NCBI GenBank assembly: GCA_032718475.1
Contig: JAUCBJ010007350.1
Coordinates: forward strand, 1 to 57,375
Reading direction: 5' to 3'
DNA from: Nemertoderma westbladi
Taxonomy: Eukaryota; Animalia; Xenacoelomorpha
Length of the DNA stretch: 57,375 nucleotides
Shown here: piece after piece, positions 1,726 to 47,785 of the stretch
Position numbering within the stretch: the first letter of the stretch is position 1
How the letters are laid out: every line of letters starts with the position of its first letter
The notes under the pieces: model-generated
Database searches by the model: none
What the model was told of the DNA's origin: nothing
Seen by the model: the letters and a program-made list of their open reading frames with translations, nothing else
Translations under genes and position numbers: made by a program

Positions 1726-1741
1726 TTTAATAATCTTTTCA

Positions 1742-7855: not shown

Positions 7856-8411
7856 TAGCGGTTGACTGGGTTTCACTTTGGTAGTTTCCGTCTGGTAACT
7901 CCGACACCCATCAATAGACAGTGAGTCATTGACATCTGTTCGACACAAACTCCAGCAATCCAGGCCGCGCTTCTTTACAAACGTAGATATCATAATATAT
8001 TATTTGTAAGTTTCCGAAGCTTTGTATTTACCGGAGTTTACGGGATATAAAAATACCGATTTAGCCTGTAAATAACGACAATGTGACAATTTAGTTTATG
8101 ATTTATTAACAGATGTCGTCATAGGTCGGTAAGTCAGTATAAGGGCGTCAACACAGAATTCCAATTAATATACCATTCCTTATTTTACACAATTTCGTAT
8201 TCTTTATGAAACAACAAATTATTGGTAATCAACTAATTTCATTTAGTTTAATGGGAAAAATACCATCTTAACGCCAAACAATGAATTAATTAAACATTAG
8301 ATTTTGTGCATTCGGAAATTTGCTAAAAAGATTTTAATATATTTATTAAATATTATTATTATTTTAGTAAGATATACAACAAATAAGCATTTTATTAAAG
8401 AATAATTTTTT

Positions 8412-18288: not shown

Positions 18289-19481
18289 TGTAAAAGCTTT
18301 TGTGGGATAACTGATACGTTTGCCTTTGCTGGCCAGTTCCCCCCCGGTCGCTAGAATACTCTCAAAGGGATTTATAACTAAAATAGTGCAAGCTACCAGC
18401 TTATTGGCTGATGTGCTGTGTGGAGATATCTGGGCTCAGTTTAATCGGCCAAACCAGCGTAGGGAGGTTGCCTAAGCCTTGCTGTCCGTGTCGGCCAATA
18501 GAATTTGCGTAGGCGTTGATTTCGACCTATCCCAGCGCTACTGAACTGAATTTCCTATCTCTATGCTCATCCTCTGTGTTGAACGGGGCTTCGTGGAATA
18601 AGAGTTTTGGTATACTCGTATAGTGGTAGTAGTCATATGATTTTATATGATTCTGTTGTTATGTTCCCATTTTTTGCCATAACACCGGCTTTTTGGGAAG
18701 AACTCTAGTAAAACTGCTTAAATTATCGAAAGTATAAACTGTTACCTCACTACCGATCAATCTAATCAATCAACCTACCTATTAATCATATTGTTTGTAC
18801 TGTTATTTACCGTCAGTTATTAATTGTACCTATTTGTTGATGGAAATATTGCTCTTTGGATAATACGGATAAATCACCCAAATTTCCCAATTTTCTTGAT
18901 ACACTACAGGTTAGAGAGACCGGCTATACATAACAATTGCGATTTATATTAATGTGGTGTGTATTGAATCTAATGTTATTTAGCAGACCCTACATGAGTC
19001 AATTACTGCTCTCTTTATGTGTGATCAAATATACTGACGGTCGGCAGAATAGTGTGCATGATTGTGATTGGTAACAAAGTATTTCCTAAAGAATACGCTT
19101 TATACTTTAATCATAAGCAGTATCGTTGCGTTTAGTATAAGTCCTAGTTCTGTTTAAATAAATAGAGCGCCACGTCCTAAAGGAACTGTTAATATTTCCC
19201 GAAAAGCCAATAATATCTGTCAGGAATTAATTATTAACGATCTATCGAATAATACAATAAGTTTACGCTGCAACCTTACACTGCAATAATAAAATTTAAG
19301 CATCCGAATTCAGCCTCCCGGGTGTAGATCCATCGGGTGAATGATCGCGCATGGGCTGACTTCGGCTAATGTTTTGTGTATTAGCATAAATTGTTGTCGT
19401 ATGCTAAAGGTGTTTTAATTAACTAAAAGACATATAAATTTTGGCAGGTTAAACTGCTAAAGGTCTTCAAAAGCGCGAACA
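18289..19481 (+). repeat. 5' LTR
   Basis: TGTAAAAGC...GCGCGAACA; I could spot only two substitutions versus the 3' LTR by eye. Confidence 0.97.
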
Positions 19482-19842
19482 GTAACAGTTTATAATCTTA
19501 TTGCAGTAGGCAATAGGGTTGCAAAATACCGTAGTGACTGGTAAAACTGAACCGGTACTTTTGTAGGTCAGTAGGCCTAACTGTCATCACCGGTACCGGT
19601 ACTGCTGTACAAGTACATTTAGTATTATTCGATTTTGATTATTGTATACTGGTAGGTCTTAGTACTTAATCAGGGACTGCAGCCCTGAATTTTTATTGAG
19701 ATTTTACCTATTTCTGTCGGTTTTATTTCCTAGTAGGCTAATATTGCAGTATTGAGCAGAAGGCGTGTGACCCTGCTCAGATTGTTCAGATAATTGTAGG
19801 CTGAGCTGCTGTCTGACTGTTGTTGAGTTTGGAGAGATTACG

Positions 19843-20291
19843 GCGTGTGTAGAGTTTGTCTGATAAAGTGCCGTTAGTAAGTTGGGGCAGCCATATGCGG
19901 TAAGGTCAATCCCCTCTTAAAGAATAAGTCGTACTACCGTGTTAGAACGCATACTAACTAACAGTTTCAGAGTCTGCATATACTGTAGTTTATTTAGGCT
20001 TGATCGTAGTCTGCCAGTGTTTTAGCCTGTGTTTGTTTGTGTGGTCTGTTCAGGTACCATAATAGTTATTACTCAAATATTTGTAGGCTGGATTGTTGTC
20101 TAGCTATTTTTAGGTCTGAAGGGATTGCTGCGTGTGTAGAGTTGGTCTGATAAAGTGCCGTTAGTAAGTTGGGGCAGCCATAAGCTGTAAGGTCAATCCC
20201 CTCTTAAAGAGTAAGTCGTACTACCGTGTTAGAACGCATACTAACTAACAGTTTCAGAATCTGCACATACTGTAGTTTGTTTAGGCTTGAT
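19843..20291 (+). repeat. Two ~160-bp direct repeats in the retrotransposon 5' leader
   Basis: 19843-~20003 versus 20129-~20291, 286 bp apart, with few substitutions. Confidence 0.9.
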
Positions 20292-21668
20292 AGTAGTTTG
20301 CCAGCGTTTGGTTTGTATTTGTTTGAGTATTCTGTACGGGTAGCGTAATATTTATTATTCAGAGTGTATGCGATTATTCGCAACATTCATGTCCCCAAGT
20401 TTATTCCTACAGTAATTGTGCTTGTTATACATACCGTTATAGTTAAACTAACCCCGGTACTACATCAGGGCTGCTCGGCGTAGGTAAAGACTGGAGATTT
20501 TGTGCTTCGGTCACTCCAGCAGATGCCGTGGTTCTTTTAACTGTTCAAGTATATTTAACTACTGATTATTTGTTATACCGGTACTTGTACCTAATTTAGG
20601 GTTTAGTGTACAGTGCTTTCCGAAGTAATTAGTGTAGGCAGTATATTTGTGTTGTAAAGTGGTTGATAGGCACATTCGTTAGCTCTATTAGCTTCTGGGT
20701 AGGAACAATCCGTGATACATAACGTAGTACCTATAGCGATACGGTTATAGGTCGTCAGGCGGTGGTATTTTCCTATCTGGACAGTACAATATATTTACTA
20801 CTTATTATTTCAAATACCGTAGTACCCTGTCCGTTATAATAACCAGAAATTCTAACCCTTTGTTAGGCTGGTTTGTAGTTTCCTGTAAAATTACCCTAAA
20901 AAATTTCGTACGTAATATTTTGTTGTGTTTAATTAGAGAATTAATCTCACCCGTATTGTAAGTAATTTGTAGTATTAAGTAACTTAGGTAAATTAGAATT
21001 ATCAGTTTTAGTGTCAAATAAATAGCACTTCACTGAGAGCGCACAGCTTCTGTGTAGTGACCCCCCAGAAATAATAACATTTATTTCAAATATTGACAAA
21101 AACCCATATAAACGGGTATATAAATATTATAAATCAAATCAAACGATTTATAAATAGTAGGCCTGTCATACAACAACTAGGTCTCACTACCAGTTGGACT
21201 ACTACTTACACAACGGTAATAAAGTAAGTTAAAGTAACTAAGTAACCCTAAAATATTCAGGAATTCAATTATTCTAAAAATAATTGACATACCGGTACTT
21301 ACTATAGGCTTATTATATTTATCTCTATAAATTTGAGCTGAAATCATACCGGTACTCTGTAATTAATTCTAGTTCATAATTATACTTATATACTATAAGT
21401 GTAAGCTGTATACCGGTATTCACTATAGGCCTACTATATATATGTATATATTTGTGCTAAATTATATACCGGTACTCTGTGACAAATCTAGTCTGTAATA
21501 ATACTTATATATATTATAAGCATACCGGTATTCTAATATATTGTATATATATCACGTTACACTGAGTAACGGTACCGGTAATAAATCGCTAGGCTTGCGG
21601 TCATACTGAATTACTAGACTTGCTTTAACTGAAAATATAGTAGTAGACATTCAACTGTATAACTAAAC

Positions 21669-23741
21669 ATGTCTGACACTCAGCAAAACCTGTCAGACAG
21701 TCTGATCGATACAACTATTTGTGATTCAGATAGGAGTGTGGAGCGAATAAGAAAGGAGTTCGGCTCACCTCCTACTGTAAAAAAGGTCATCCCTCCAGTA
21801 GTATCAGACCCTAGGCTAGTCCACCATAGGTCCATCATAGGCACTCGGGCACAGGTAAAACGGGACCAAGAGGCAGTTGTCCTATCGCAGCAACATCTTG
21901 GTCAAGAACCTACTTCCCAGCGATCCGATAGCTCCAGCAGTTCGGATACTGTAGAGTTGACTCCCGAACATGGAGTGCAGATGGCTGATACAGTCTACTC
22001 GGACCCCCTTCTTACTCTTCCTGCTGCAGTGCTAACTACTATATTCATTGCGGTGGAGGAACATCAAGCCGACTGGGCGAAGAATAAGCGAGCGACCCAA
22101 GATAATTACGCGGGATACGCCAGAGAAGAATTGATATCTATTGTTGAATCTCAATGGAACTTTCCCGGACTCGGACTTCCGTTGGATCTGTCCGAGGCTA
22201 CTTGGGAAGATATACACAGGATGGGAGTGGCTAAAGATACAATGGATCCAGCTGTTTGGAAGAGGTCGGCAGCAGGATATGTGCAGGGATTCTTCGGATC
22301 CTTGGATCGATTGGAAGAACAACTGTTTCGACAACCTCACGGACCTCAAGAGCAGGAAGAATTGCTATATCAAATACGCGAAAGAACCCTACGCATACGA
22401 CTAATCCTCTCAGCCTTTGAGGAAACTTCCAAAAGAAGACAAGACACGTCGCTGCAGGTTGCTGTCAAAACTTGGTTACATCGGGTAGATCTCAAAGTCC
22501 AGGAAACGGCCCAGTGGAAATCCCAGCTGGCTGAGAGATCAACCTATGAAGAACCAACTGATGTCACCCTTTCTCAAGCGAAAAGCGAAGAGGCCGCCGA
22601 GGAACCGCGAACTAGAGACGCTATCGACATTTATTTGTCCGACTATCAGCGATTCCTAGGAGACGAAGAGTTGAGGAGACGGCTGTCTGGACTTTCCCCT
22701 AATAGTGAAGGAACCAAGCTTGTGTTGGACTCAATCGATGCCGAAATGTTAGCTGCAAACCAAGCTGAATGTGATGAAAAACTCCGCCTCACTAGAGTCC
22801 GAGAAGAACAAATAAAGAAAAGAAGGATAGAGGAACAAAAGGCGGTGGCTATGGCAGATGCAGAAGCAGAAAGAAAGGCAGCAAAGGCGGCGGCTATGGC
22901 AGATGCAGAAGCAGAAAGAAAAGCAGCAAAGGCGGCGGCTGCGGCAGATGCAGAAGCAGAAAGAAAGGCAGCGGCGGCAGATGCAGAAGCAGAAAGAAAA
23001 GCAGCAAAGGCGGCGGCTGCGGCAGATGCAGAAGCAGAAAGAAAGGCAGCGGCGGCAGATGCAGAAGCAGAAAGAAAAGCAGCAAAGGCAGTGGCAGAAG
23101 CAGAAAGGAGAGCATCTGAGCAGACTACCCAACTGGAGTTGGAAAATCTGCAAGAGACACAAGACAGTATAAATAAACAGTTTACTGCTAATCAAATGCA
23201 GATGATGAGAAAATCTACTCCCAAGCGCCAGGGATACACATCCTCGGAGGAAGGCGATACTACCGATCCTGAAGGCGGAGGAAATAGATCTCATCTAAGT
23301 AGGCGTAGAAAAACATATTACCGTCGCAAATTGCCTGATTTGCCCCCAGCTGTTAAAAGACAGCTAACTAGCACAGACTTAGGTAGTGCAGAACCCATAG
23401 AACAATTTATCCAGGTCAAAAGACTCCCTACTATAGTCGATGAACCTGAAATAATTAGGCCTGTTGTTCCCAAAGTCACTTCTGTGCTAGAGACCCCTAC
23501 ACTTCCAGAGCTTAACTCTAAATTCCCTTTACATAGTACTACACTGCCTGTACCCGGTGGAACAGTCCATGCAAATACCCCTGTCCAGATAGCAGAGAGA
23601 GAAATCAATAATTTGTCTCCCGTCGTCCCGCGTCAGCCCGCTACTATGTTGGCGACTCCCGCTTCGGCGGTTGAGTGGGTGGAAGAGGGACGGCGGGGGA
23701 TGAATCTCCTGCTGGGACAGATGCAGGAGACTGTCCACTAG
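21669..23741 (+). CDS. BEL/Pao gag, N-terminal part (interrupted by MITE)
   Basis: 690-aa ORF whose stop TAG is the first three bases of the MITE TIR; joins in frame to ...TVH-QLKGTVREG after MITE removal; contains ADAEAERKAAKAAA repeats. Confidence 0.9.
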   Translation: MSDTQQNLSDSLIDTTICDSDRSVERIRKEFGSPPTVKKVIPPVVSDPRLVHHRSIIGTRAQVKRDQEAVVLSQQHLGQEPTSQRSDSSSSSDTVELTPEHGVQMADTVYSDPLLTLPAAVLTTIFIAVEEHQADWAKNKRATQDNYAGYAREELISIVESQWNFPGLGLPLDLSEATWEDIHRMGVAKDTMDPAVWKRSAAGYVQGFFGSLDRLEEQLFRQPHGPQEQEELLYQIRERTLRIRLILSAFEETSKRRQDTSLQVAVKTWLHRVDLKVQETAQWKSQLAERSTYEEPTDVTLSQAKSEEAAEEPRTRDAIDIYLSDYQRFLGDEELRRRLSGLSPNSEGTKLVLDSIDAEMLAANQAECDEKLRLTRVREEQIKKRRIEEQKAVAMADAEAERKAAKAAAMADAEAERKAAKAAAAADAEAERKAAAADAEAERKAAKAAAAADAEAERKAAAADAEAERKAAKAVAEAERRASEQTTQLELENLQETQDSINKQFTANQMQMMRKSTPKRQGYTSSEEGDTTDPEGGGNRSHLSRRRKTYYRRKLPDLPPAVKRQLTSTDLGSAEPIEQFIQVKRLPTIVDEPEIIRPVVPKVTSVLETPTLPELNSKFPLHSTTLPVPGGTVHANTPVQIAEREINNLSPVVPRQPATMLATPASAVEWVEEGRRGMNLLLGQMQETVH

Positions 23742-24415
23742 TGTTAGACCGGAGCTCCGGCTCCGGTCCGGATCCGGCCCGGAAAATGGTGCTCCGGTTC
23801 CGGTCCGGCTCCGGCTAAAATATGACCGGAGGACCGGAGCTCCAGTATAAAAACTGTAAAAGACAGACAGAGTCACACAATGTACAATGCACAATCAGTT
23901 GTCCACAGTCACAGTCAGACAGTCATCTAGTCCTGTAGTCTGTAGTCCATCATACTGTCATAGTACAGCTACACTGCCAGGCCAGACTGCCTACTGCAGT
24001 ACTGGCCTACCACTGTACCAGTACCAGGCAGCCAGGTGCCAGGCTGAGGCTACAAAGTAGTGTAGGCCCCTACTGCTGTACTGGTTTATGAGTAAAAACA
24101 AAGTCAGAAAGTGTAGAAGTTGGCTCACTAAATGTAGCTCAGTACCGGTAGCTGTGTAGTGCTGTAGTGGACAGGTGGACTAACTGCAAGTGCAACATGC
24201 CAGGTCTGCAGGTCATATTACAGTACAGTCTGACAGTGGTACCGGTACCTGTCTGCCTGTCCTGTCAGCCTGTAGGTCATACCAGGCTGCCAGGCCTCAA
24301 TATATATTTTTTAATTTTACTTACCCGGTCCGGCTCCGGTTCCGGCTCCGGTACTTTTGGAATTTACCCGGTCCGGTTCCGGCTCCGGCAAAAATCTGGC
24401 TCCGGTCTAACGCTA
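23739..24415. mobile_element. Non-autonomous hAT-type MITE (677 bp) inserted in gag
   Basis: 17-bp TIR TAGTGTTAGACCGGAGC / GCTCCGGTCTAACGCTA (1 mismatch); 8-bp TSD CTGTCCAC at 23731-23738 and 24416-24423; subterminal CCGG-rich repeats. Confidence 0.95.
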
Positions 24416-24423
24416 CTGTCCAC

Positions 24424-26214
24424 CAACTTAAGGGAACAGTGAGGGAAGGTAGAGCAGAGTTGCAAGAGGTGCAGCAAAGTATCGCACTAGAACGCGACAA
24501 ATTAGTCAATATCCAAAAGGGCATACCAATACCCCCTGTAACATTGTGTCAACCTGTTAGGTCTGAAGTACTACATGCGCAAGGTGTGGAGCCTACACGC
24601 ATCTATACTGCTAGTGAAGTTGAAACTCCTATAACAAACCCTATTAAGGGTGATTATAGACCTGTTATTAATGATATTCCCTATAGACCTGATAATGATC
24701 CGAGAAATTTATATACTGATAATTCGATATTAAATAACACGATGGCCCAAGAAAGCTTTACGCGTCAGATGGCTAGAACAGAAGCCCGCCAAGCGGTCAA
24801 AGTGGGAGAGATCGTCAAATTCAATGGAGACGAAATGAAATGGTTACCTTTCAACGAATATTACAAAGATAGCATACAGAACTCTGTACTATCTAACGGA
24901 GAGAAACTTAGATTCCTCATCAAGTGTTTGGAAGGACCTCCCAAGTTAATGGCGTTAAAGTTTATTGGACATCCAGAAGGATTAAGACAAGTTTGGGATA
25001 CATTAAACATCAGGTATGGTAATAAGGATAACATAGCTAAGTATTTGTATGCAAAATTAGTAGCCCCCCGACACTTCCTTAGTAGTGGGATTATAGAGTT
25101 TTCCGATGAAATTCAAGAGATCTGTAGACAACTGGACTGGTTAGGTAAGTCGCACGAATACCAGAGTTCCATGGTTATTGGAGCCGTAGTCTCTACTTTA
25201 CCAAAGGGTGGAGTATGCACACGCTGGGACAAGAAAGTGTTGTACATGAATGAACAACAACGACGAAGTCCTACCATGGCTGATCTCATGTCTTTCTTAG
25301 ATGGTGAAGTCAAACTACAACTCATCAAGCAGTCCAGAGAGAAAACATCGGAAAATAAGGTAAGTGAGAAACCCACTTCTAGGAGAAGAGTAACACCGGT
25401 GTGTTACACTGACGACGGCGAAAGCCAAGCTTCCCAAGAAGAGGACAGCGGGAAAGATACAGACCGATCGTATTATGTTGACAAAACCTCCAAGGACGTA
25501 AGTAAATACAAAGCTCGAACCAATAATAGGAGAGAACAAGTTACTAAGACCCCTCCTCAGTCTCCTAGCAGAATGCGCGGAAGAAAGCCCGAAGAAAGAA
25601 CGAGAGTGCATCAGACTACCCAAGGTAAAGTAAGTAACATAAAACCTAACTGTGCGCTGTGCGACGGGACCCACCGTTTGAGTGCGTGTGTGGAATTTCT
25701 AAAGAAATCCCTTGTAGACAGACGTACAGTTGTGTGGGACAAGCGGTTATGTTATAATTGCCTCAGACCAGGACACCAACGGCGAACCTGTTACTCCGAC
25801 ATAAAGTGTGAAAAGTGTGGTGCGAAACATCACATCTTGTTACATAGTGAGTTCGAACGAGACAAGCCGAGTCAGGTAAGTGAGTCCGAACTACATGTCC
25901 AATTCAGTGATGTAAACGACACTGATCAGGAGTCTGAGATGGAAGGATTCTATACTGACGAATTCTCCGACGCCAATGAATCCTGTTATCTAATAAACAC
26001 CACGGTGTATCGAGCACTTACTTACGAAAAGGACATCAACGAGGAGTTTCCCCCTACTACTTTTACCAAACAATCATCTTGGAAAGCTCCAACTTCCAAC
26101 GTAGGAATCAGAGAATTTCCTGTAGTTCAGGTAAGAGTTCACGGTATTAACAAAAGCTACATAGTGAAAGATATCCGAAGATATCTTTGCTGGACAACCC
26201 AAGTTCCGGACTAA
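24424..26214 (+). CDS. BEL/Pao gag, C-terminal part (DUF1759-like core, three Cys/His motifs, start of protease region)
   Basis: KFNGDEMKWLPF...LSNGEKLRFL...L.IRYG; CALCDGTHRLSAC, CYNCLRPGHQRRTC, CEKCGAKHHILLH. The first ~78 aa of the listed ORF 24190.. are MITE/TSD-derived. Confidence 0.92.
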   Translation, partial: QLKGTVREGRAELQEVQQSIALERDKLVNIQKGIPIPPVTLCQPVRSEVLHAQGVEPTRIYTASEVETPITNPIKGDYRPVINDIPYRPDNDPRNLYTDNSILNNTMAQESFTRQMARTEARQAVKVGEIVKFNGDEMKWLPFNEYYKDSIQNSVLSNGEKLRFLIKCLEGPPKLMALKFIGHPEGLRQVWDTLNIRYGNKDNIAKYLYAKLVAPRHFLSSGIIEFSDEIQEICRQLDWLGKSHEYQSSMVIGAVVSTLPKGGVCTRWDKKVLYMNEQQRRSPTMADLMSFLDGEVKLQLIKQSREKTSENKVSEKPTSRRRVTPVCYTDDGESQASQEEDSGKDTDRSYYVDKTSKDVSKYKARTNNRREQVTKTPPQSPSRMRGRKPEERTRVHQTTQGKVSNIKPNCALCDGTHRLSACVEFLKKSLVDRRTVVWDKRLCYNCLRPGHQRRTCYSDIKCEKCGAKHHILLHSEFERDKPSQVSESELHVQFSDVNDTDQESEMEGFYTDEFSDANESCYLINTTVYRALTYEKDINEEFPPTTFTKQSSWKAPTSNVGIREFPVVQVRVHGINKSYIVKDIRRYLCWTTQVPD

Positions 26215-26215
26215 A

Positions 26216-29200
26216 TTGAATATGTCAGGAATTATGCAGGTTTGGAAATCTACCCTGACGGCAGATTACTATGTAGGTGTGTTGTCCACCCCCCAGGATA
26301 AGTTAGGAAAACAAGGTGTAAGGTCAGTAAAAATGGTGGCTATAAAGAACTTCGCTACTACCCAAGCAGACCTTTATAATTGGGACGAGGATGAGAGCAT
26401 CCAACATCTTAAGATACCTCGATTCCAGACAGATTATCCTGGAGTGCAAATACTCATCGGCCAAAACGCACACGAAGCGCTTGAGACATTGGAGAAACGG
26501 CCTGCTCAACCACAGCCACTGCAAACTTATGCGGTGAGAACTAGAGTAGGTTGGTACTTTACTGGCCCTTCCCGTAGAACTCTAGAAGAGAGAATGCCCC
26601 ACGAACAAATATATCAGGTAAGTGATTGGGAAGAGGAAAGCAGTGAGGTGGACGAACTAACTGAGGGAACACCATACTCCTCGGATAATGACGACATCTA
26701 CCAACTCTTCGAAGAAGAGAACACAATTGACCTACTTACCGAAAACCAAACTTGGAAAAACCAAACGAACCTATGTCAACTGATTCGCCCAACGGAATCC
26801 ACTATTTATAATGACGAACTTAATGACGAGGTAGAGCGCTACAACGCTAGAACTCGGGACGAACTCGCCGTACGATTCTTTACCCAAGAATTGGTAGAAC
26901 CCAATTCATACGACAAAGCCCTGTCGATAGAAGAAGAAAGAGCCAAGCAAATCCAGGAAACAACCACACGTTTTTTAAAAGATCAAGGTAGATATGAAAT
27001 CGGACTACCCTTCCGAAAACGTGAACCCAGATTTATAAATAACAGACCCTTGGCTGAGAAAAGAATCAATCAATTACATCGACGTCTTACGGCAAATGCT
27101 TCAGCTAAGGAAATGTACCAAACTCAGTTGAAGAAATTTATCACAAAGGGATATGCGGAGCGAGTACCGGAAGGAACTCCAATAACTGAAAGGACTTATT
27201 ATCTAACACATCATTATGTTCCCAAACCCGGTAAACCCCATGAAGTACGGGTTGTATTTGATGGCTCCGCCCTATATATGGGCCAATCCCTTAATTCCGA
27301 GTTGTTACCAGGACCCAACTTGCTCCAATCTTTGTTGGGGATACTGTTGAGATTAAGACAATATTCCATCGCGTTCGCCTCCGATATAGAAGGAATGTTC
27401 CTTCAAGTCAAGGCGTTGGATCGTGATAGAGACAGCCTAAGATTCCTGTGGTGGCCTGAAGGAGATCTCAACCAGACACCGGTAGAGTACTGGATGACCA
27501 TCCAGGCTTTTGGGATTATATCAAGCCCTTCAAACGCCTGCTCAGTGGTCCGTACCACTGCGGATGACAACCGGGATGCCTTCTCCAAAGAGGTGATAGA
27601 TAACATCAAACGAGACATATACATGGACGACAACTTAAAGTCCCTTCCATCAGTAAAGGAAGCCATTGATGTCGCGAAAGGAACGGTTGAGTGTTTGAAA
27701 AGAGGTGGATTTCGATTGACGAAGTTCACCAGCAAATCCCGTGAGTTTCTGGAAGCAATATCTGTAGAAGACCGGGGATCAAAAGATCTCGACTTAATAC
27801 ATGACGATCTTCCGGAAACCAAGACGCTTGGCTTGAAGTGGGACACAGAAAGAGATATCCTGTTTTTTCAGTTAAAACAGCGAGATAATCCAGTTCGGAC
27901 CAAACGGATTTGTTTAAGTATTCTGAGCACTTATTTCGATCCCTTGGGATTTATTAGCCCAGGTATATTGATTGCTCGGAGTTTAGTACAACAAATGTGG
28001 CTGGAAAACCACTCGTGGGACGATCCACTCAAGGGAGAACTATTAAAGAAATGGATGAAATGGGAGGATTCGCTACCTGCCATCGAGAACTTTATAATTT
28101 CCCGTTCATATTTTGGTCACGTTCTCCCTACGTATTCCTATCAACTCCATGTATTTGGAGATGCCAGCGATATGGGGATCGGTATAGTAGCATATCTGCG
28201 AGTCGAAACTCCGGATGGAATCAAAGTTGCCTTGGTTACCTCTAAGGCATTGATTAACAACAAGCTTAAGGTTCCTCGGGCGGAGTTAAAAGCAGCATTA
28301 TACGCTACAGCTATCGGCCGGAATGTAACAGAACAGATCGATTATCCACTGGAGAAAACTGTTTATTGGACCGACGCTTTACTTGTATTGGAATATATAA
28401 CGAATGAAGTCTGTCAGTTCAGCGTCTTTGTTACTAACAGAGTGGCCATTATTCTTAGTCGCACAACGATAGATCAATGGAGACATTGCCCTGGTACGAT
28501 TAACCCAGCTGACATCGCCTCCAGAGGAGCAACTCCACAGGAACTGATAGATACCCCTGATTGGTTGGGTGGACCCGACTTCTTGAGCAAGGAAGAGGAT
28601 GAATGGCCTCCTCACCTTACTACGGCTGAGATTAGACAAGCCAAGGGAGCGGAGAAAGTCAAACCCAAAATTCGGACAAGTAAATCGAAGTTATTTAAAC
28701 CGACAATCGACCTATCTGTATTACATACTGCCGAGAACGATACTTCGGATCCACAATCCCTCGCCACAAACAAATCTGTTGTGGAAATTAGAGATAGAGA
28801 TTGGAAATCTGAGATACCAGACGTCTCGCAAGGAATCTCACCCCTGCTGCAGAGAGCACTGCATCATTACAGTTCCTGGAATCGTCTCTGTAAAGCTATC
28901 ACATACTTAAAGAGATGTTTTCACCATCATTACTCCAGGAAGAAGACCACTAGTGATCCTGCTCCGGTAACATCTGCGCAAGTTCATGTTATTAAAGTTC
29001 TACCTAAGTACAAGATATCAGACCGGTTTCTAAAAGAGAAGATCAGCTACCAGGAGCATGAAGAAACTAATAAGCAGATACTGAGACTCTTGCAATGCTA
29101 TGAGGATCCCGATAGGTATTTTCTGCTATTAAGAAATCCGCAGATGCGCTTAAGGGATCGCTTCTCTAGCACAATGATAGATGGGTTAATACGCGTTGGA

Positions 29201-30505
29201 GGAAGACTTACCAACGCTCCATTATCTTTTGATACTAAATTCCCTATACTCATTAGTAATCTTGAAGTACAAATCAAGATGATTGTAGATGTTCACAGTA
29301 AATTGTATCATGCTGGTAGAGAACGAGTTCTTAGCGAGATTCGAACCCGCTATTATTTTCATAAACCACGTAGAGCTCTGAATCAAGTTCTTAGGAACTG
29401 CATACCTTGTAGGAAAGTATTCAGTAGGCCTTTAACACAGCGAGAGGCAGAATTACCTAGGGAACGAGTAAGCTTTTATGAACCACCCTTTACTAATACT
29501 GGTGTGGATTTATTTGGCCCTATTGAAGTATATCGTGCTAGAACTATAATCAAGAGATGGTGTGTAATCTTTGTCTGCATGACTTGTAGAGCTATCCATC
29601 TCGATATGGTGAACGATCTATCTACTAACAGCTTCGTCTTATGTCTACGACGACAGATCGCTCGTTTCGGCACTAGCAATACGATGAGATCCGATAAGGG
29701 AACGAACTTCATTGGTGCCAACAACGAAATCCAGGCTTACGTAAAGGACTGGAATCAAAGACAGGTGGATGACCAGCTACGGATAACGGCGTCTAGCTGG
29801 ACCTTTAACGCCGCCGACGCCCCTTGGTGGGGAGGAAGTTGGGAGAGATTAATTAGAAGTGTCAAGACCGCATTTCACTTTATAGTGCCGTGCCGCGCAT
29901 ATCTCACCGACGAACTTCTACGGACGTTAATGGAAGAAATCGCTGCCTATCTTAACGAGAGACCGCTTATGCCAGTCTCATCGAGTATCGACTCCCTGGA
30001 AGCGCTAACACCCGCGCACTTCCTACTTAAGAAACCTGTAGCCATGCTCCCACAATCCGAGATTGCCGATGGAGATGAATACTGTCGTCGAACTTGGCAG
30101 CTTATGCAGTTGCTATCCCGTCGTTTCGCTGACCATTTTGAGAAACATTATCTGCCCACGCTACAACTTCGAACTAAGTGGTTTGTGCAGCAGGAAATTG
30201 TCAGCGCCGGAGACATGGTCCTTATTGTAGATCCGGACCTCCCACGTAGACGGTGGCAGATCGGTCGTATCATCGAGACGCACATCTCGGAGGATGGTCT
30301 AGTGCGCTCAGTAGAACTCGTCGTAATGCGGCGTAACTTCAAGAAACCAGGTATAATCTTTGAGACGCAACAACTCAATCGCCCAGTTGGTCGTTTATGT
30401 TTACTGGAAAGAGACAGAGAACTCTCTGGAAACTATGGAAGGCAAGAAACCCTTCCCACGACCACCTCCCTAATACCTCAAACATCTAGGGGCTCTTCAA
30501 CGTAG
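26216..30505 (+). CDS. BEL/Pao pol (RT, RNase H/Pao-A17 region, integrase, DUF5641-like tail)
   Basis: RVVFDGS, LLPGPNL, SDIEGMFLQV, YMDD, LHVFGDAS, PRAEL, NPADIASRG, H..LYHAG...CIPC, GVDLFGP, SDKGTNF, GGSWERLIRSVK, LQLRTKW. Confidence 0.97.
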   Translation: MNMSGIMQVWKSTLTADYYVGVLSTPQDKLGKQGVRSVKMVAIKNFATTQADLYNWDEDESIQHLKIPRFQTDYPGVQILIGQNAHEALETLEKRPAQPQPLQTYAVRTRVGWYFTGPSRRTLEERMPHEQIYQVSDWEEESSEVDELTEGTPYSSDNDDIYQLFEEENTIDLLTENQTWKNQTNLCQLIRPTESTIYNDELNDEVERYNARTRDELAVRFFTQELVEPNSYDKALSIEEERAKQIQETTTRFLKDQGRYEIGLPFRKREPRFINNRPLAEKRINQLHRRLTANASAKEMYQTQLKKFITKGYAERVPEGTPITERTYYLTHHYVPKPGKPHEVRVVFDGSALYMGQSLNSELLPGPNLLQSLLGILLRLRQYSIAFASDIEGMFLQVKALDRDRDSLRFLWWPEGDLNQTPVEYWMTIQAFGIISSPSNACSVVRTTADDNRDAFSKEVIDNIKRDIYMDDNLKSLPSVKEAIDVAKGTVECLKRGGFRLTKFTSKSREFLEAISVEDRGSKDLDLIHDDLPETKTLGLKWDTERDILFFQLKQRDNPVRTKRICLSILSTYFDPLGFISPGILIARSLVQQMWLENHSWDDPLKGELLKKWMKWEDSLPAIENFIISRSYFGHVLPTYSYQLHVFGDASDMGIGIVAYLRVETPDGIKVALVTSKALINNKLKVPRAELKAALYATAIGRNVTEQIDYPLEKTVYWTDALLVLEYITNEVCQFSVFVTNRVAIILSRTTIDQWRHCPGTINPADIASRGATPQELIDTPDWLGGPDFLSKEEDEWPPHLTTAEIRQAKGAEKVKPKIRTSKSKLFKPTIDLSVLHTAENDTSDPQSLATNKSVVEIRDRDWKSEIPDVSQGISPLLQRALHHYSSWNRLCKAITYLKRCFHHHYSRKKTTSDPAPVTSAQVHVIKVLPKYKISDRFLKEKISYQEHEETNKQILRLLQCYEDPDRYFLLLRNPQMRLRDRFSSTMIDGLIRVGGRLTNAPLSFDTKFPILISNLEVQIKMIVDVHSKLYHAGRERVLSEIRTRYYFHKPRRALNQVLRNCIPCRKVFSRPLTQREAELPRERVSFYEPPFTNTGVDLFGPIEVYRARTIIKRWCVIFVCMTCRAIHLDMVNDLSTNSFVLCLRRQIARFGTSNTMRSDKGTNFIGANNEIQAYVKDWNQRQVDDQLRITASSWTFNAADAPWWGGSWERLIRSVKTAFHFIVPCRAYLTDELLRTLMEEIAAYLNERPLMPVSSSIDSLEALTPAHFLLKKPVAMLPQSEIADGDEYCRRTWQLMQLLSRRFADHFEKHYLPTLQLRTKWFVQQEIVSAGDMVLIVDPDLPRRRWQIGRIIETHISEDGLVRSVELVVMRRNFKKPGIIFETQQLNRPVGRLCLLERDRELSGNYGRQETLPTTTSLIPQTSRGSST

Positions 30506-31036
30506 TACGTCTGGAGTGGGTGTATGTCTATATTATTTTATCTGTTTTTATTACATTTTATATGTAAATGTTATTATGTACGTTCTTATAATCGTTTTTA
30601 TTTAATTTTATTTAGTAAAATGTTATTTTAGAATATTTAGTAGATTAGTGCAATATATTAGTGTTTATTACGTACATAATTACTTATAATATATATTTAG
30701 TGCGACGGCAAGAAGTAATTATTTTTTCTTTCCTTACTGTCCGTATTATATTATAAATGCGAGACTATAGTAAGATGACATGTCAGTACTTCTTAAAGTA
30801 CAATAAAGCCACTACTATATTTAAGTATTATTGGTAGGCAGAGTATTAGGAATGCAAAGTTCAGATCCTCGTGTCTCAGCTAAACCAAGCTCTGGGTAGA
30901 CCTTGGAAACGACTTGCCTCTTCACACTGACATTGCTTCGTGCGATATTGCTCTTCTACCTTATAACAAATAATACATATAGTAGCGTGATGTCCCTCTA
31001 ACAGTAGCGTAAATCGCAAATAAATCTGTTAAACTT

Positions 31037-31310
31037 TTGACCATCTGTAATTCTAGTCGATTAAGATATCGTGGCACCCACCGATATACTTGAAAGACAA
31101 ATTCTAGAATCAGTGGTTAACGTCCCCAGACAAGTTCTGGAATAAATCGGTGCCCATCCTAAATATTAATTTAATATTTATTAAAATATGTAAAATTCAG
31201 ATCCGTTAACAATTCTAGTCGATTAAGATATCGTAGCACTTACCGATACTCTTAGAAGGACTATTTTATAGAATTAAGGATCCTAAGTCCCCAGATATGC
31301 TCTGGAATAA
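31037..31310 (+). ncRNA. Duplicated putative structured RNA element in the retrotransposon 3' non-coding region
   Basis: Two ~110-nt copies (31037-31146 and 31200-31310) with shared stems, compensatory changes and variable loops. Structure deduced by eye. Confidence 0.55.
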
Positions 31311-31928
31311 AATTTGTATCAATTTAACATCAAATAATAAAATTCACGGGAATAAATTTAAATTCATATTCAAATGAATTTCATAAATTGTCATTTTGTG
31401 CAATTTATAACATTCCCAAAATTCCAGTAATTAATAGATCATGGGAGCGGAGATTCATATTGAGTGTACTAGAGCGCGAGAATCTCCAACATATAGTCAA
31501 TAGCCGATAAAATTTATAAAATCATGCATAAAGAGGATATTGACAATTAAAGAATTACTATTAAATAACATCCCAGATCTGTATGCATGAGAATTGCCCT
31601 AATTCTACCGCTAGTTTTCCATAATGTCACCATGGCAACACCCACGCTAGAATTAGAAGCAAGTTAAAAGGAACAATAAAAGCTTACCCCATTGCGTAGC
31701 ATAAGAGTATACATAACGCACTATTAGTATCCAAGGATACATAGTAATAACGTGACATTCTGGAAGACACTGACTAACGGACAAATGGCATGCATGTGTG
31801 CAATAAGTAATGATTGTATGGAATTTGTGCGTTTATAGGTGAATGTTACTACTAAAGTGTGTTTACAGTAGATAATCGCAATTGTAAAGTAGCCCTAACT
31901 CTACCGAGATAACCTCAAGTGGATTCAA

Positions 31929-32081
31929 GCTTTTGGGACGGACAGTGGTGGGACTTGTGCCGGTTATCGTTGTCGTGCTGTTGCTACATGTTGGCGTAAA
32001 CACCGCGACAACGGTACATCGGCGCTGAGAAACCCACTGTCCGGGGGCAAAGCCTAGTAGGCAGCGACGCCCGCTTGCCTA
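31929..32081 (+). ncRNA. Long G-U-containing hairpin plus a small hairpin just upstream of the accessory ORF
   Basis: CGGACAGTGG/CCACTGTCCG, GTGCCGGT/ATCGGCGC, TATCGTTGTCGTG/CGCGACAACGGTA; then TAGGCA-GCG/CGC-T-TGCCTA. Confidence 0.55.
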
Positions 32082-32123
32082 AATATTAACTCATATTAAT
32101 ATTAATAAACTCAGATAGCAGAT

Positions 32124-33572
32124 ATGACGGAATTGATAGAAGATGACCTTGGTATTAGAGAGGGATATACTCTACCTTTACAAGCGTTTGTGGATAGCTT
32201 GATACGCGGTGAAGCCGATCCGACTATTACGGAGGACGATGGTCGTTATATCGAACCGCCGATGTCCCAAGAGCAACTTACGCGTGAATTGGACTATCGA
32301 AAATTAACCGCTCGCTATACGCATCGTAATGGTACGTATATGGACTTCTTAACTACCGGCCATCCTATCGATTTACATGATACGGACGATGTAGACACCG
32401 AAAGGGAAATGGTTCTATTTAAATATCATACCCAGCGGCGTCGTAACGATAAACCGAGAATAGATCACGAAAATTCTATTCGTAACAGACTGGGAAGACG
32501 AACCAATATGTCTAGAATCTGAGGAGATTCAGCCTATCGCGCTCGGAACAGCGACAACGATTACATCCTAGAATGGTATCAAAGTCCACAGTGTCTCACT
32601 GCGTACGATTATCGCCATGCCAACTATGTTTCTCGGCAACGTTGTCGGTTATGCGCATCGAGAGACCATGTTACGCCCATGGACACAAACGTCCGCTGTT
32701 CCTATTTCCACGAACAACCGGCGATGGAAATTTATTGCGCGTATTGCAGATTTAATAATTTGCACATTTTTGCGGTTTGCCCTCAATTTATGACTCAATG
32801 TCACCATTGTCAACTAAAGGGACATGCCAGTTTCGATTGCCCTTTTAACCATGATTTAGAGAGCGTAGATGAAATGATTGTACTACGTTATATCAGAGCT
32901 TGGGAAGCGAACGCTGATTTACATTGTGATTCACGCCATCGCTATTATCCTGGACGCGCTTACGAAGGAGTTTATGCGTTCCATCCTTATTTGTTTGCCT
33001 CCGTCGAGCAGAAATCGCGCCTATCAAGTTATGAACTATTGAAGCGCGTTGGAGAATGTATTTCAACCAAATATGTACGCAAATTCCTCAGGAGCATTAA
33101 TCCGAGTGACATCAATTCGTATAACTTAATAAACTTTATCCGTCAAGATCCGGCCTATGGAGACTTATTTGTCAACTCACACCCCGAGTTACAGGAAGTA
33201 TATCGACGGCCTTACGAGTACAGAGCCCGCGAACGCGAGTTGGAAAGAACCATTAAACCAAGGAAGTTTCTAACTGCCTATGGTCCACCCACGGCCCTCG
33301 TTAAGACCACTCGTAAAGGACCCGTAAGAGCGGCTGTCTTGAAACGAGCTCTCAAAGCCGTTAGACCCCTCTCCCCGGACGTTGATGTCAATCAACCCGG
33401 TACTTCGACCGGCGGATATACCGATCGCAATCCCATACCTTCTGATGCAATCATATTGCACCCTTCACCCAGGAGTTATAGCCCTCCTCGTAAAGTGGCT
33501 CGCCCCAAAGAGAAAAGGACTCTTGCTAGCTTTAAAAAACTGCGTAAACGCCGTCCGCGCAAGAAAGACTAA
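32124..33572 (+). CDS. Accessory ORF of the BEL element: ~482 codons, three Zn-knuckle-like motifs, basic C-terminus, one in-frame TGA
   Basis: ORFs 32124..32522 and 32679..33572 share a frame and the 52 codons between them are open; motifs CRLCASRDH..C, CAYCRFNNLHIFAVC, CHHCQLKGHASFDC; ends KKLRKRRPRKKD. Confidence 0.8.
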
Positions 33573-33650
33573 CTGTTTAGAGTATTTTTATATTTTAGAA
33601 ACTGTGATTTTGTATATTTTATAGACTTAAATCCCATTTTCTGGGAGCGG

Positions 33651-34843
33651 TGTAAAAGCTTTTGTGGGATAACTGATACGTTTGCCTTTGCTGGCCAGTT
33701 CCCCCCCGGTCGCTAGAATACTCTCAAAGGGATTTATAACTAAAATAGTGCAAGCTACCAGCTTATTGGCTGATGTGCTGTGTGGAGATATCTGGGCTCA
33801 GTTTAATCGGCCAAACCAGCGTAGGGAGGTTGCCTAAGCCTTGCTGTCCGTGTCGGCCAATAGAATTTGCGTAGGCGTTGATTTCGACCTATCCCAGCGC
33901 TACTGAACTGAATTTCCTATCTCTATGCTCATCCTCTGTGTTGAACGGGGCTTCGTGGAATAAGAGTTTTGGTATACTCGTATAGTGGTAGTAGTCATAT
34001 GATTTTATATGATTCTGTTGTTATGTTTCCATTTTTTGCCATAACACCGGCTTTTTGGGAAGAACTCTAGTAAAACTGCTTAAATTATCGAAAGTATAAA
34101 CTGTTACCTCACTACCGATCAATCTAATCAATCAACCTACCTATTAATCATATTGTTTGTACTGTTATTTACCGTCAGTTATTAATTGTACCTATTTGTT
34201 GATGGAAATATTGCTATTTGGATAATACGGATAAATCACCCAAATTTCCCAATTTTCTTGATACACTACAGGTTAGAGAGACCGGCTATACATAACAATT
34301 GCGATTTATATTAATGTGGTGTGTATTGAATCTAATGTTATTTAGCAGACCCTACATGAGTCAATTACTGCTCTCTTTATGTGTGATCAAATATACTGAC
34401 GGTCGGCAGAATAGTGTGCATGATTGTGATTGGTAACAAAGTATTTCCTAAAGAATACGCTTTATACTTTAATCATAAGCAGTATCGTTGCGTTTAGTAT
34501 AAGTCCTAGTTCTGTTTAAATAAATAGAGCGCCACGTCCTAAAGGAACTGTTAATATTTCCCGAAAAGCCAATAATATCTGTCAGGAATTAATTATTAAC
34601 GATCTATCGAATAATACAATAAGTTTACGCTGCAACCTTACACTGCAATAATAAAATTTAAGCATCCGAATTCAGCCTCCCGGGTGTAGATCCATCGGGT
34701 GAATGATCGCGCATGGGCTGACTTCGGCTAATGTTTTGTGTATTAGCATAAATTGTTGTCGTATGCTAAAGGTGTTTTAATTAACTAAAAGACATATAAA
34801 TTTTGGCAGGTTAAACTGCTAAAGGTCTTCAAAAGCGCGAACA
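33651..34843 (+). repeat. 3' LTR
   Basis: Direct repeat of 18289-19481; preceded by a short purine-rich GGGAGCGG (PPT candidate). Confidence 0.97.
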
Positions 34844-35390
34844 TCGTCCTTTGACCGCCCTGCAGCCACTGCGTATCATATTATGCGATCCTCCTATCAC
34901 TCTGTTCTACTGTATTCTATCACCCCCATTAGCTATGAACCCCTTTTCTAATTCTACCGGTACAATTTACTTTCAGTTTCTCCGCTCTGGTTCAAAGCCT
35001 ACACCAGCTTACCAAACCTATCAGTTCTGTAGTTACCAGTATTATTTTCTCTATTCTAGTATCACATAGGTTGACTAGTTGATAGGCCTACAGTTACGTT
35101 ACAGTTGAATCTTTACATACATTGTATTGTCTTTGTTAGATTAAATAAAAGAATCACGATGTTATATGTGAAACCAACGTTGCGGTCGCTGCTGAGAACG
35201 TAGTTAAAGAGACTAAATATAATAACTAATAATAGTAAGTAACATATTATTAATACTGTAATATCTATAGCCGAATTATATTATTCTTACTGAAACAATC
35301 ATAAACTCTTAATTAATTTATAAACTAGATAGGGCCTAATTTATCTTCCCTTTAGGTTTAAACAGACGGAGGGTGTTTCGTTATGGATCA

Positions 35391-36297
35391 AACCCATGGG
35401 TTACCCGTTGGGTCTACGGGTTGGATGTAACCCATGCGTTACACGTTGGGTCTACGGGATGGATGTAACGGGTTACCCGCTGGGTCTACGGGTTGGGTGT
35501 AATCCATGGGATACTGGATGGGTCTACTGGTTGGATGTAACCCTTGGGTTACCCGTTTCGGGCCGTTTGCCCTACAGGTTGGATGTAACCATGGGTTACC
35601 GGTTGGGTCTACTGTTAGGATGTAACCCTTGGGTTACCCGCTGAGTCTACGGGTTGGATGTAACCCATGAGATAATCGATGGGTCTACGGGATGGATGTA
35701 ACGTGTTACCCGCTGGGTCTACTGGTTGGATGTAACCCATGGGTTACCCGTTGGGTCTACTGGTTGGATGTAAACCATGGGTTACCCGTTGGGTCTACTG
35801 TTTGGATGTAACCCTTGGGTTACCCGCTGGGTCTACGGGTTGGATGTAACCCATGAGATACTCGATGGGTCTACTGGTTGGATGTAACCCATGGGTTACC
35901 CGCTGGGTCTACTGGTTGGATGTAACCCATGGGTTACCCGTTGGGTCTACGGGTTGGATGTAACCCATGGGTTACCCGTTGGGTCTACTGGTTGTATGTA
36001 ACCCATGGGTTACCCGCTGGGTCTACTGGTTGGATGTAACCCATGGGTTACCCGTTGGGTCTACGGGTTGGATGTAACCCATGGGTTACCCGTTGGGTCT
36101 ACTGGTTGTATGTAACCCATGGGTTACCCGTTGGGTCTACGGGTTGGATGTAACCCATGGGTTACCCGTTGGGTCTACTGGTTGTATGTAACCCATGGGT
36201 TACCCGTTGGGTCTACGGGTTGGATGTAACCCACGGGTTACCCGTTTGGTCTACGGGTTTGATGTAACCCATGGGTTACCCGTTGGGTCTACGGGTT
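35391..36297 (+). repeat. 38-bp minisatellite containing the 16-bp palindrome GTAACCCATGGGTTAC
   Basis: Unit GTTGGATGTAACCCATGGGTTACCCGTTGGGTCTACGG, about 23 copies. Confidence 0.95.
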
Positions 36298-36510
36298 CCA
36301 TCTATCCTTTATGGGATTCCAACCGCGGTTCCTGGAACCGACGTTCCCAACGGAAGCCACACGACCTACGGCAGTGCCGTTCATTTGTTTATTGTAACTC
36401 AGAGGATATTATTAATTTGTTGTATATTATAATTATAATGTTAGTTACATTACCTACTGCGCTACTGTACAGTTTGTTACTTTGTGTGTTTCAGTTTCAT
36501 CTCGAATGTT

Positions 36511-37611
36511 TCACCCCTCTGGTTTCTGGCATTTCACCTTCATCTCAATAGTTTCAGTTTTTGTTTCCCATTCACTTGGGGGAGGTCCGCCAAACCACCA
36601 TCCTTTGATCCAATTAAACTCCTCGTTGTTGTAAACAGAAAGATCGCAGTTTCTTTCATTAGCAGATACACCGGTATTGGACTCATCGTAATAACTTGTA
36701 ATCTTTAGAGGATGCCTGTAAGCAGCACCCACAGTAAAGTTTCTGTATAAAACCGTCGCTGTACCACATTCAATCTTCATAAAACATTCCCTATCCTTTG
36801 TCAGATCACGCATATTAACCATGCCCAGGAAGTAACTTCCTTTGGAATCTCCGAATCCCATATTGTACTCGTCAACACCACCAGTGAAACTGGTGTTGGG
36901 GATACGTCTATAAAATATGATCCAATCGCGATCGCAACTTAGTTTCTTGTCGTTAGTGTTTGCATATTTGAGTTGACTTCCGAGATCAACGGTATATTGA
37001 TCGGATTCTGTCAGATTATCGCATATTTTAGGATCATAGGGATCGCATTCTCTTTTACTTCTATCGCAGTCGATAAACGACCGATAAAAGTCATTCTTCT
37101 CTGAGATTATCGTTGTTGTGGCTGAAACCTCACCAGTACTGGTACTGTCAGTGGTTGATATCTCTGTACCAGTGGTACTGTCGGTGGTTGATATCCCTGT
37201 ACCAGTGGTACTGTCGGTGGCTGATATATCTGTACCAGTGGTACTGTCGGTGGTTGATATCCCTGTACCAGTGGTACTATAGGTGATAGACTCCCCACCA
37301 ATAGCGGTGCCAGTAGTATTTGGGAATGTTGATGTAGATATCCCCAAATCCTTCACATTGGCTTGATTTACCAGCCAAAGAATCAACCCGATCACACCAG
37401 CTGCCGTCGCCACTGCCGCTAATACAATAAGGGCAATAATTATACGCCGTTTTTTCAGTCCGTTTGGCCGGCCTTAGTGCACAATTTTTGTAGCATTAGC
37501 AGAGTTGCTTGCAGCACCGATACATGCCGCTAGCTCTTCTACTGTCTCTATCGTGTATTTAAATGCATTTTTTTCGGTTCGGTGCAGACGGTGGACTGAG
37601 GTATCTACCAT
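36511..37611 (-). pseudogene. Intronless type-II membrane protein with Thr/Ser stalk and divergent fibrinogen-related domain; in-frame stop near the N-terminus
   Basis: ATG at 37611 is in frame with ORF 36511..37413 except for TAA at 37476-37474; KKRR followed by hydrophobic IIIALIVLAAVATAAGVIGLILWLV; TTGTxISTTDS repeats; WIIFYRR, EYNMGFGD..GSYFLG, Y.NF.VG, GWWF, IEMKV motifs. Confidence 0.75.
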
Positions 37612-47501: not shown

Positions 47502-47785
47502 ATGGCGAAATATCTGAAAGTTAAAATCTTCTGTCTCTCAGCTGTAAACCATAAAGTGAAGTAAAGACCAGATAACACTGTAACACATCCAACACGAACT
47601 CTGGAACTCAGCATTCAGACAGCAGCACGTGCTTGCAGCACACTGCAGCACTGCCACTGATACACTGCACTCGTTTATTTTACAGTTTCACGTAGGCCTA
47701 CTGTTATTTCTTAATTTAATAAAATAAGGCTGTAAGAAGGCCTATAACCCTGTAACCTGATAACTGCAAACTGTATAATTGAATT

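What the first reader, a model, noticed from the sequence alone, without database searches (positions are those of the whole stretch)
30506..33650. BEL/Pao element with a 3' accessory module: structured non-coding RNA plus a Zn-knuckle/basic protein
Seen: 3.1 kb separates the pol stop from the 3' LTR, made of ~1.6 kb of stem-rich non-coding sequence and a ~482-codon ORF with three CCHC-like knuckles and an Arg/Lys tail, with no signal peptide or TM segment. Established: typical BEL/Pao elements have one gag-pol ORF close to the 3' LTR, and some add an env-like ORF; complex retroviruses pair an RNA-binding accessory protein with a cis RNA element (Rev/RRE, Rex/RxRE, Rec/RcRE). Inference: this may be an analogous protein-plus-RNA module controlling export, splicing, packaging or silencing evasion. 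I cannot confirm novelty without a database search.
Basis: partly seen in the sequence, partly recalled or inferred. Interest (0 to 1): 0.85.

Follow-up and report, generated by a model that had tools for sequence, protein, structure and literature searches.

The report
BEL/Pao retrotransposon with extra zinc-knuckle gene
A very large, recently inserted jumping gene of the BEL/Pao group in an animal carries, after its polymerase gene, a spacer with a few strong RNA hairpins and an extra gene with no known relatives that is conserved across sister copies and likely makes a nuclear RNA-binding regulator of the element; that it binds those hairpins is untested.

Summary
The layout is real. A 16.6-kb BEL/Pao element (LTRs 99.8% identical, 5-bp target duplication) has 3,145 nt between the pol stop and the 3' LTR, against 103-429 nt in 15 comparison elements. 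The 482-codon third frame, broken once in this copy, is under purifying selection: 26 of 37 listed differences in sister contigs are synonymous, about 27% expected. It has one canonical and two irregular zinc knuckles, a basic tail, no membrane segment, no homologue in any search, and does not score as BEL Gag nucleocapsid. 'Stem-rich 1.6 kb' is overstated: structure sits in a duplicated hairpin unit and one 105-nt hairpin; Rfam finds nothing. No expression, splicing or binding evidence was obtained, so a Rev/RRE pairing is a hypothesis (about 0.2), and a Rev-like protein is already published for the Gypsy element Cer1. I found no such non-envelope gene described for BEL/Pao. This scan noted related things on other DNA (extra genes in BEL/Pao, a knuckle gene in a Gypsy element, self-complementary primer sites). 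Verdict: new variant of a known kind.

The parts
18289..19481 (+). 5' LTR, 1,193 bp, TG...CA; 5-bp target duplication at 18284-18288 and 34844-34848
   Evidence: 2 mismatches to the 3' LTR (99.83%)
19482..19494 (+). Primer-site position; no TGG-type tRNA site; exact 13-nt complement of LTR 18733-18745 (candidate self-priming)
19482..21668 (+). 2.2-kb leader with internal duplications and 8 GT(A/G)AG donor-like sites
21669..26214 (+). Long gag (unknown N-terminal extension, DUF1759 capsid, BEL triple knuckle), interrupted by an insert of about 690 bp near 23725-24414 that one sister contig lacks
26168..30505 (+). pol: protease (its active-site motif lies out of frame in this copy), RT (YMDD), RNase H, integrase, DUF5641
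30506..32123 (+). Non-coding spacer; U-rich first 200 nt (50% T); 8 AATAAA hexamers
31037..31146 (+). Hairpin unit 1: 85-nt stem-loop, then a 5-bp stem (31126-31140) followed at once by AATAAA
31200..31311 (+). Hairpin unit 2: diverged duplicate of unit 1 (79% identical), same predicted fold, 5-bp stem (31291-31305) plus AATAAA
31939..32043 (+). Long G+C-rich hairpin, 43 pairs with 6 G-U, about 80 nt before the ORF3 start
   Evidence: z = -6.4, 0 of 200 shuffles; stronger on + than on - strand
32124..33572 (+). ORF3, 482 codons: acidic N-terminus, variable linker with the break (stop at 32520-32522), zinc knuckles, predicted helical region, Pro/Ser/basic tail
32643..32840 (+). Three CCHC-like knuckles (residues 174-239); 5 of the ligand codons vary silently in sister contigs
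33642..33650 (+). Purine-rich tract before the 3' LTR; the same 9-mer recurs at 31442
33651..34843 (+). 3' LTR

Best explanation
ORF3 is a conserved accessory gene of an oversized BEL/Pao retrotransposon family, and it likely encodes a nuclear zinc-knuckle protein that would bind the element's own RNA and help the full-length transcript escape early poly(A) cleavage or nuclear retention. Shown: position inside the element, purifying selection, knuckles, basic tail, no membrane segment, local hairpins and a cluster of AATAAA signals after pol. Inferred: expression from a spliced or subgenomic RNA (it cannot plausibly be reached by scanning past gag-pol and 26 spacer ATGs), nuclear location from the terminal KKLRKRRPRKK stretch, RNA as the ligand from the knuckle type, and the spacer hairpin/AATAAA units as the likely target. 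In this model the spacer sets a default of short or retained RNA, and the protein switches the element to genome-length RNA, as CERV does for Cer1.
For: 26 of 37 listed ORF differences are synonymous, 25 at third positions, omega about 0.12-0.17, p 5e-10 to 2e-7 (40 of 208 sites were listed); both halves show it (7 of 10, p 0.006; 19 of 27, p 3e-6); gag and pol controls give 12 of 16 and 11 of 13. Contigs down to about 81% identity still lie on ORF3 (record 2). Only 1 one-base indel and 1 deletion joint fall in the ORF. 8 AATAAA in the spacer against 2.4 expected, 1 of 1000 shuffles; each hairpin unit ends in one. Duplicated hairpins keep 5 of 7 varied inner pairs and both outer stems. Sister contigs show joints that skip RT or integrase, while summed depth is highest over the spacer (52-90 against 9-44 in pol), which fits a cis role. 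Precedent: CERV (PMC10309623).
Against: No splice joint with GT..AG ends and no run on record as RNA. No homologue, confident fold or family gives the function. Retention of pairs between the two units is not significant (P = 0.10). Host flanks contain hairpins as strong. The AATAAA excess is inflated by the duplication and uneven A+T content (5 on the other strand). Export-signal matches are loose patterns only. An acidic N-terminus plus zinc motif plus basic tail fits a transcription activator as well. Depth of contigs is a poor measure of copy number. No single contig links ORF3 to pol in another copy.
Confidence: 0.4

Rival explanations
1. ORF3 is a transcriptional trans-activator (foamy-virus Tas or Tax style, recalled): the acidic N-terminus would activate, the zinc region would bind DNA in the LTR or in an internal promoter within the spacer, and the duplicated unit would be a DNA enhancer repeat.
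For: 23 D/E in the first 100 residues, basic terminal stretch; an A+T-rich tract directly before the ATG could be an internal promoter; selection evidence applies equally.
Against: Closely spaced CCHC knuckles usually bind single-stranded nucleic acid (established knowledge); the hairpins fold better on the sense strand, with G-U pairs.
Confidence: 0.2
2. ORF3 is an anti-silencing or anti-surveillance factor that would bind small-RNA or exosome-targeting components in trans; the hairpins are unrelated cis signals or small-RNA precursors.
For: Feature look-alikes are Air2-like and hexamer-binding multi-knuckle proteins (scores 0.78-0.86, leads only); the long hairpin has the size of a microRNA precursor.
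Against: All Atlas scores are below 0.9, a level that shuffled proteins often reach; Rfam microRNA matches are far below threshold.
Confidence: 0.15
3. ORF3 is a nucleic-acid chaperone or packaging helper, a second nucleocapsid-like protein that would help package or copy an unusually long (about 15.9 kb) genome.
For: Knuckles plus basic tail resemble nucleocapsid chemistry; the element is well above the 4.2-10 kb given for the family (PMC8742986).
Against: Gag keeps its own triple knuckle (67.6 bits on the BEL profile); the terminal basic stretch suggests a nuclear role.
Confidence: 0.15
4. ORF3 is a nested or captured passenger (a gag or LINE ORF1 piece) whose selection signal comes from its donor family elsewhere in the genome.
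For: A weak tblastn resemblance to BEL gag knuckles (E about 0.5); no contig spans pol and ORF3; the purine tract 9-mer recurs at 31442, which might mark an older 3' end.
Against: BEL nucleocapsid profile from 80 domains scores ORF3 at -5.5 bits, below 460 of 500 shuffles; no capsid or ORF1 family hit; no terminal repeats or target duplication around it; cover runs on through spacer, ORF3 and LTR, with 7% of contigs running on into unlike sequence.
Confidence: 0.1

Closest known systems
Belpaoviridae (BEL/Pao), ICTV profile PMC8742986 (whole text read)
   Same: gag-pol order PR-RT-RH-IN, BEL triple knuckle, Peptidase_A17/DUF1759/DUF5641 domains, TG...CA LTRs, purine tract, a third gene after pol
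   Different: 15.9 kb without the insert, against 4.2-10 kb; the third gene is not env-like (no signal or membrane segment); no tRNA-type primer site
CERV of Cer1, C. elegans Gypsy-type element (PMC10309623; abstract, sections 6 and 15 read)
   Same: element-encoded, Cys-containing accessory protein of an LTR retrotransposon; the functional model proposed here
   Different: other superfamily; CERV has a C4-type Cys loop and a G-protein-like domain, is shown to be spliced, nuclear and needed for export; none of this is shown here, and the general homology searches did not return it
Rev/RRE, Rex/RxRE, Rec/RcRE of complex retroviruses (Rev as described in PMC10309623; the rest recalled)
   Same: basic accessory protein near structured RNA in the 3' part of the genome
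   Different: ORF3 is about four times the size of Rev (size recalled), has zinc knuckles, no clear export signal; the RNA is separate hairpins
ORF3 genes of bdelloid rotifer LTR elements (PMC5408684, abstract) and Retand antisense ORFs of plants (PMC11963269, abstract)
   Same: non-envelope extra ORFs between pol and the 3' LTR; in Retand a 2.9-6.6-kb pol-LTR region with tandem repeats and a presumed regulatory protein
   Different: not BEL/Pao; enzymes (GDSL, DEDDy) or antisense TRP28 proteins, not a sense knuckle protein
Tf1/sushi self-priming elements (PMC6317226, passages)
   Same: primer site complementary to the element's own LTR
   Different: described for Ty3/gypsy and proposed for some Ty1/copia, not BEL/Pao in the passages seen; the transcript start is unknown here

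Membership tests
BEL/Pao (Belpaoviridae) | BEL-type Gag and Pol domains in the order PR-RT-RH-IN | tested here: met
   best relatives 38-43% identical, long branch among marine-animal BEL elements
BEL/Pao (Belpaoviridae) | LTRs of 0.2-1.2 kb, purine tract, target duplication | tested here: met
BEL/Pao (Belpaoviridae) | Genome of 4.2-10 kb | tested here: not met
   16,555 bp, 15,865 without the insert; a descriptive range, not a criterion of descent
BEL/Pao (Belpaoviridae) | 18-nt tRNA-complementary primer site | tested here: not met
   no TGG-type site after the LTR; 13-nt complement of the LTR instead. No tRNA set of the host was available. Most comparison elements also lack a TGG start there
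env-bearing BEL/Pao | Third ORF is a membrane glycoprotein | tested here: not met
   best hydropathy window 0.78; no env family hit
Nested BEL gag fragment | Knuckles match the BEL nucleocapsid profile | tested here: not met
   -5.5 bits, 460 of 500 shuffles as high or higher; own gag 67.6 bits
Rev/Rex/Rec/CERV-type export system | Accessory protein made from a spliced RNA | tested here: inconclusive
   no GT..AG joint among the listed joints; the only holder is contigs of uncertain kind
Rev/Rex/Rec/CERV-type export system | Basic RNA-binding/nuclear-import motif | tested here: met
   13 K/R in the last residues 458-482; by composition only
Rev/Rex/Rec/CERV-type export system | Leucine-rich export signal | tested here: inconclusive
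   4 loose pattern matches, none convincing
Rev/Rex/Rec/CERV-type export system | Conserved structured RNA element | tested here: inconclusive
   strong local hairpins; 5 of 7 varied pairs kept between duplicates, P = 0.10
Rev/Rex/Rec/CERV-type export system | Protein binds the element and is needed for export of unspliced RNA | not testable with these tools
   needs bench work
Group I intron or hammerhead ribozyme in the spacer | Catalytic core / Rfam match | tested here: not met
   no match at E <= 1 over the element or above any gathering score at E <= 10 in the spacer; no CUGANGA in the spacer; R- and S-like motifs present but no room for P4-P6

The most novel reading that the evidence does not exclude
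A BEL/Pao lineage has independently built a complex-retrovirus control circuit: an orphan zinc-knuckle protein that binds a duplicated hairpin-plus-poly(A) switch after pol and licenses the 15-kb genome RNA, in an element that also primes reverse transcription with its own RNA.
Probability: 0.2. Interest if true: 0.75.

Novelty: new variant of a known kind. Interest (0 to 1): 0.52.

Why it matters
BEL/Pao elements are described as simple, with at most an env-like third gene and poorly understood replication (PMC8742986). A selected, non-envelope, orphan regulatory gene in a 16-kb member shows the group can become as complex as foamy viruses or lentiviruses. If the protein controls the element's own RNA, it would be a further independent invention of the Rev-type solution besides retroviruses and Cer1, with a small and testable RNA target. 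The gene may also be a new family of RNA-binding proteins, although its orphan status partly reflects a poorly sampled host lineage.

Tried and rejected
Homologue searches for ORF3 were all blank: word-based search (0 of 3,899 candidates), phmmer over 1.84 billion representatives, PDB sequences (best E = 1), metagenome contigs, tblastn on 78 BEL loci (best E about 0.5), ESM Atlas (leads under 0.9; no usable hit). Two single-sequence AlphaFold models were unusable (mean pLDDT 36), so no fold search was run. No whole genome is held, so copies could not be counted or aligned. No RNA holder listed; run X1 behaves like multi-copy DNA, and X2 and X3 held next to nothing: no statement on expression. 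Viral contigs gave no BEL loci. Apparently long pol-LTR distances in L031, L035, L059, L073 were permuted or tandem contigs whose downstream frame is gag; none of 14 loci inspected had a comparable extra ORF. Group I intron idea (prompted by notes on this genome): R- then S-like motifs occur (5 of 2000 shuffles, but patterns chosen after seeing them) without a coherent core; rejected. Hammerhead: no core motif in the spacer. Self-priming is not general among comparison elements: exact complements of 8-10 nt in L017, L067/L068, L023, none notable in the others. The structure string was misregistered for the outer and small stems; only its inner helix counts, and repeats it. A complex prediction was not sent: the claim is protein-RNA. 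My recollection that nematode Cer7 has a further accessory ORF could not be confirmed.

Full report
Element. The finding lies in one LTR retrotransposon at 18289-34843. The LTRs are 1,193 bp, differ at 2 positions, start TG, end CA and are flanked by a 5-bp duplication, so the insertion is very recent. Pfam and homologue searches make it BEL/Pao: DUF1759, Peptidase_A17, H2C2 integrase finger, DUF5641; the best Pol relatives are 38-43% identical, and those with names are mostly from echinoderms and corals, with a few from a fish and a mussel; it sits on a long branch (40 rows chosen by hand from the hits). It is 16,555 bp, or 15,865 without a nested insert, against 4.2-10 kb in the ICTV profile (PMC8742986, whole text). 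This copy is defective: an insert in gag, a protease motif out of frame and a stop in the third frame. A host gene nearby shows an animal with no close relative in the databases.

Is the 3' region unusual? The pol stop is 3,145 nt from the 3' LTR. Of 78 BEL loci fetched from metagenomes, 62 reached the end of pol; in the 15 where a purine tract and an LTR start were plain, the distance was 103-429 nt. Four apparent exceptions were permuted or tandem contigs, and none of 14 loci inspected held a comparable ORF.

The ORF. 32124-33572 is 482 codons with one stop at 32520-32522; the other five frames have 20-34 stops. It ends 78 nt before the LTR. It has an acidic start (23 D/E in 100 residues), three Cys/His motifs at residues 174-239 of which only the third is canonical, a predicted helical stretch, and a Pro/Ser/basic tail; no membrane segment. 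One public run, X1, holds many diverged copies as short contigs (746 laid on the element; 75 on this region). Of 208 differing sites the tool listed the 40 best supported; 37 lie in the ORF, 26 are synonymous and 25 fall on third positions, against 22-29% synonymous expected (omega about 0.12-0.17). The other two frames give 9 and 3 synonymous. Both sides of the break show the excess, and five zinc-ligand codons vary silently. Caveats: the list is truncated, the sites come from few contigs and are not independent, and no contig joins ORF3 to pol. The stop itself is not among the 40 listed sites, so I cannot say whether it is private to this copy. It lies in a segment where diverged contigs stop aligning (32486, 32498) or resume (32544, 32571) and one shallow contig has a one-base indel; a nonsense change, a local frame break or a small intron all remain possible.

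What is the protein? No homologue was found by six searches; Pfam gives only a sub-threshold knuckle; Atlas look-alikes are generic multi-knuckle proteins below 0.9; structure models failed. A profile of 80 BEL nucleocapsid domains scores the element's own gag at 67.6 bits and ORF3 at -5.5, no better than shuffles, so it is not a BEL gag piece.

The RNA. The spacer is non-coding but not structured throughout: 3 of 20 windows reach z <= -3, similar to host flanks that contain inverted-repeat elements (2 of 27, 5 of 23). Two features stand out. First, a duplicated unit (31037-31146, 31200-31311; 79% identical): an 85-nt stem-loop, then a 5-bp stem whose loop differs while the stem is invariant, then AATAAA. 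Between the copies 5 of 7 varied inner pairs still pair and both outer stems form from different letters, but a random null gives P = 0.10. Second, a 105-nt hairpin of 43 pairs at 31939-32043 (z = -6.4), weaker on the minus strand; the one listed variant in its stem keeps a pair. AATAAA occurs 8 times in the spacer against 2.4 expected. Rfam finds nothing credible; ribozyme ideas failed. Summed contig depth is highest over the spacer and some contigs skip RT or integrase, which fits a cis-acting role but is weak evidence.

Mechanism. That ORF3 is a real, selected accessory gene is about 0.9. The most likely role (0.4) is post-transcriptional control of the element's own RNA: a long leader with donor-like sites, a long region after the pol stop and clustered poly(A) signals would all favour short, spliced or retained RNA, and a nuclear knuckle protein could override that. 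Every step after 'selected gene' is inferred. Rivals are a transcription activator (0.2), an anti-silencing factor (0.15), a packaging chaperone (0.15) and a passenger (0.1). A strict Rev/RRE-like pairing with these hairpins is about 0.2.

Comparison with print. CERV of Cer1 is a spliced, nuclear, Cys-loop protein needed for export of unspliced RNA of a Gypsy-type element (PMC10309623: abstract, sections 6 and 15). Non-envelope third ORFs are known in rotifer LTR elements (PMC5408684, abstract), Retand elements (PMC11963269, abstract) and, as small upstream ORFs, in the Drosophila MDG1 group (bioRxiv 10.1101/2025.03.14.642691, passages). For BEL/Pao the passages seen name only env (PMC8742986; PMC3118150 and PMC554778, passages). 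The review of giant transposons has no BEL case in the passages found (PMC6431247). Ten full-text searches listed no BEL/Pao element with a zinc-knuckle third ORF or with self-priming. Limits: subscription papers, Repbase, Dfam and GyDB were not searchable, and I did not open the supplements of PMC3118150, which list element lengths and sequences. Notes of this scan report extra genes in BEL/Pao elements and a knuckle gene in a Gypsy element of other genomes, and self-complementary primer sites in several BEL families; these are unchecked leads and not support, and none matched this sequence.

Verdict. Observation partly confirmed; interpretation partly supported. A true BEL/Pao element by descent, departing from the family description in size, third gene and primer site. 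New variant of a known kind; interest 0.52.

Noticed in passing
window 19482-19494 with 18733-18745: No tRNA-type primer site; the first 13 nt after the 5' LTR are an exact complement of an LTR stretch (6e-5 expected in the LTR; 0 of 200 control positions reach 13). Candidate self-priming; the LTR site directly follows an AG. Found before the notes were read; the scan has noted the same in other genomes.
   Followed up: partly
window 21669-23741: Gag has an N-terminal extension of about 690 codons with Ala/Glu/Lys repeats and no Pfam hit, making gag about twice the usual length.
   Followed up: no
window 23725-24414: Insert of about 690 bp with inverted ends in gag; one sister contig skips it.
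   Followed up: partly
window 26190-26230: The protease active-site motif is in a frame different from both gag and pol: this young copy looks defective and may have been moved by helper copies.
   Followed up: partly
window 26691-28470 and 28659-30370: Sister contigs skip most of RT or of the RNase H-integrase region: deleted, non-autonomous derivatives exist.
   Followed up: no
window 31442-31450: Second copy of the 9-mer purine tract that precedes the 3' LTR: possible second plus-strand primer site, relic of an older 3' end, or chance.
   Followed up: no
window 5-60: 56 bp, 91% identical to the 3' end of the LTR, at the window start: another copy or solo LTR nearby.
   Followed up: no
window 47783-49087: Intron-free bystin frame, at best 56% identical to any database protein and equidistant from molluscs, echinoderms and vertebrates: an animal host from a poorly sampled lineage.
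   Followed up: partly
window 36511-37473 (-), 15113-16597 (+), 44129-45543 (-): Fibrinogen-C domain frame and two LINE-type RT fragments; long satellite arrays at 1600-8000 and 35400-36400.
   Followed up: no
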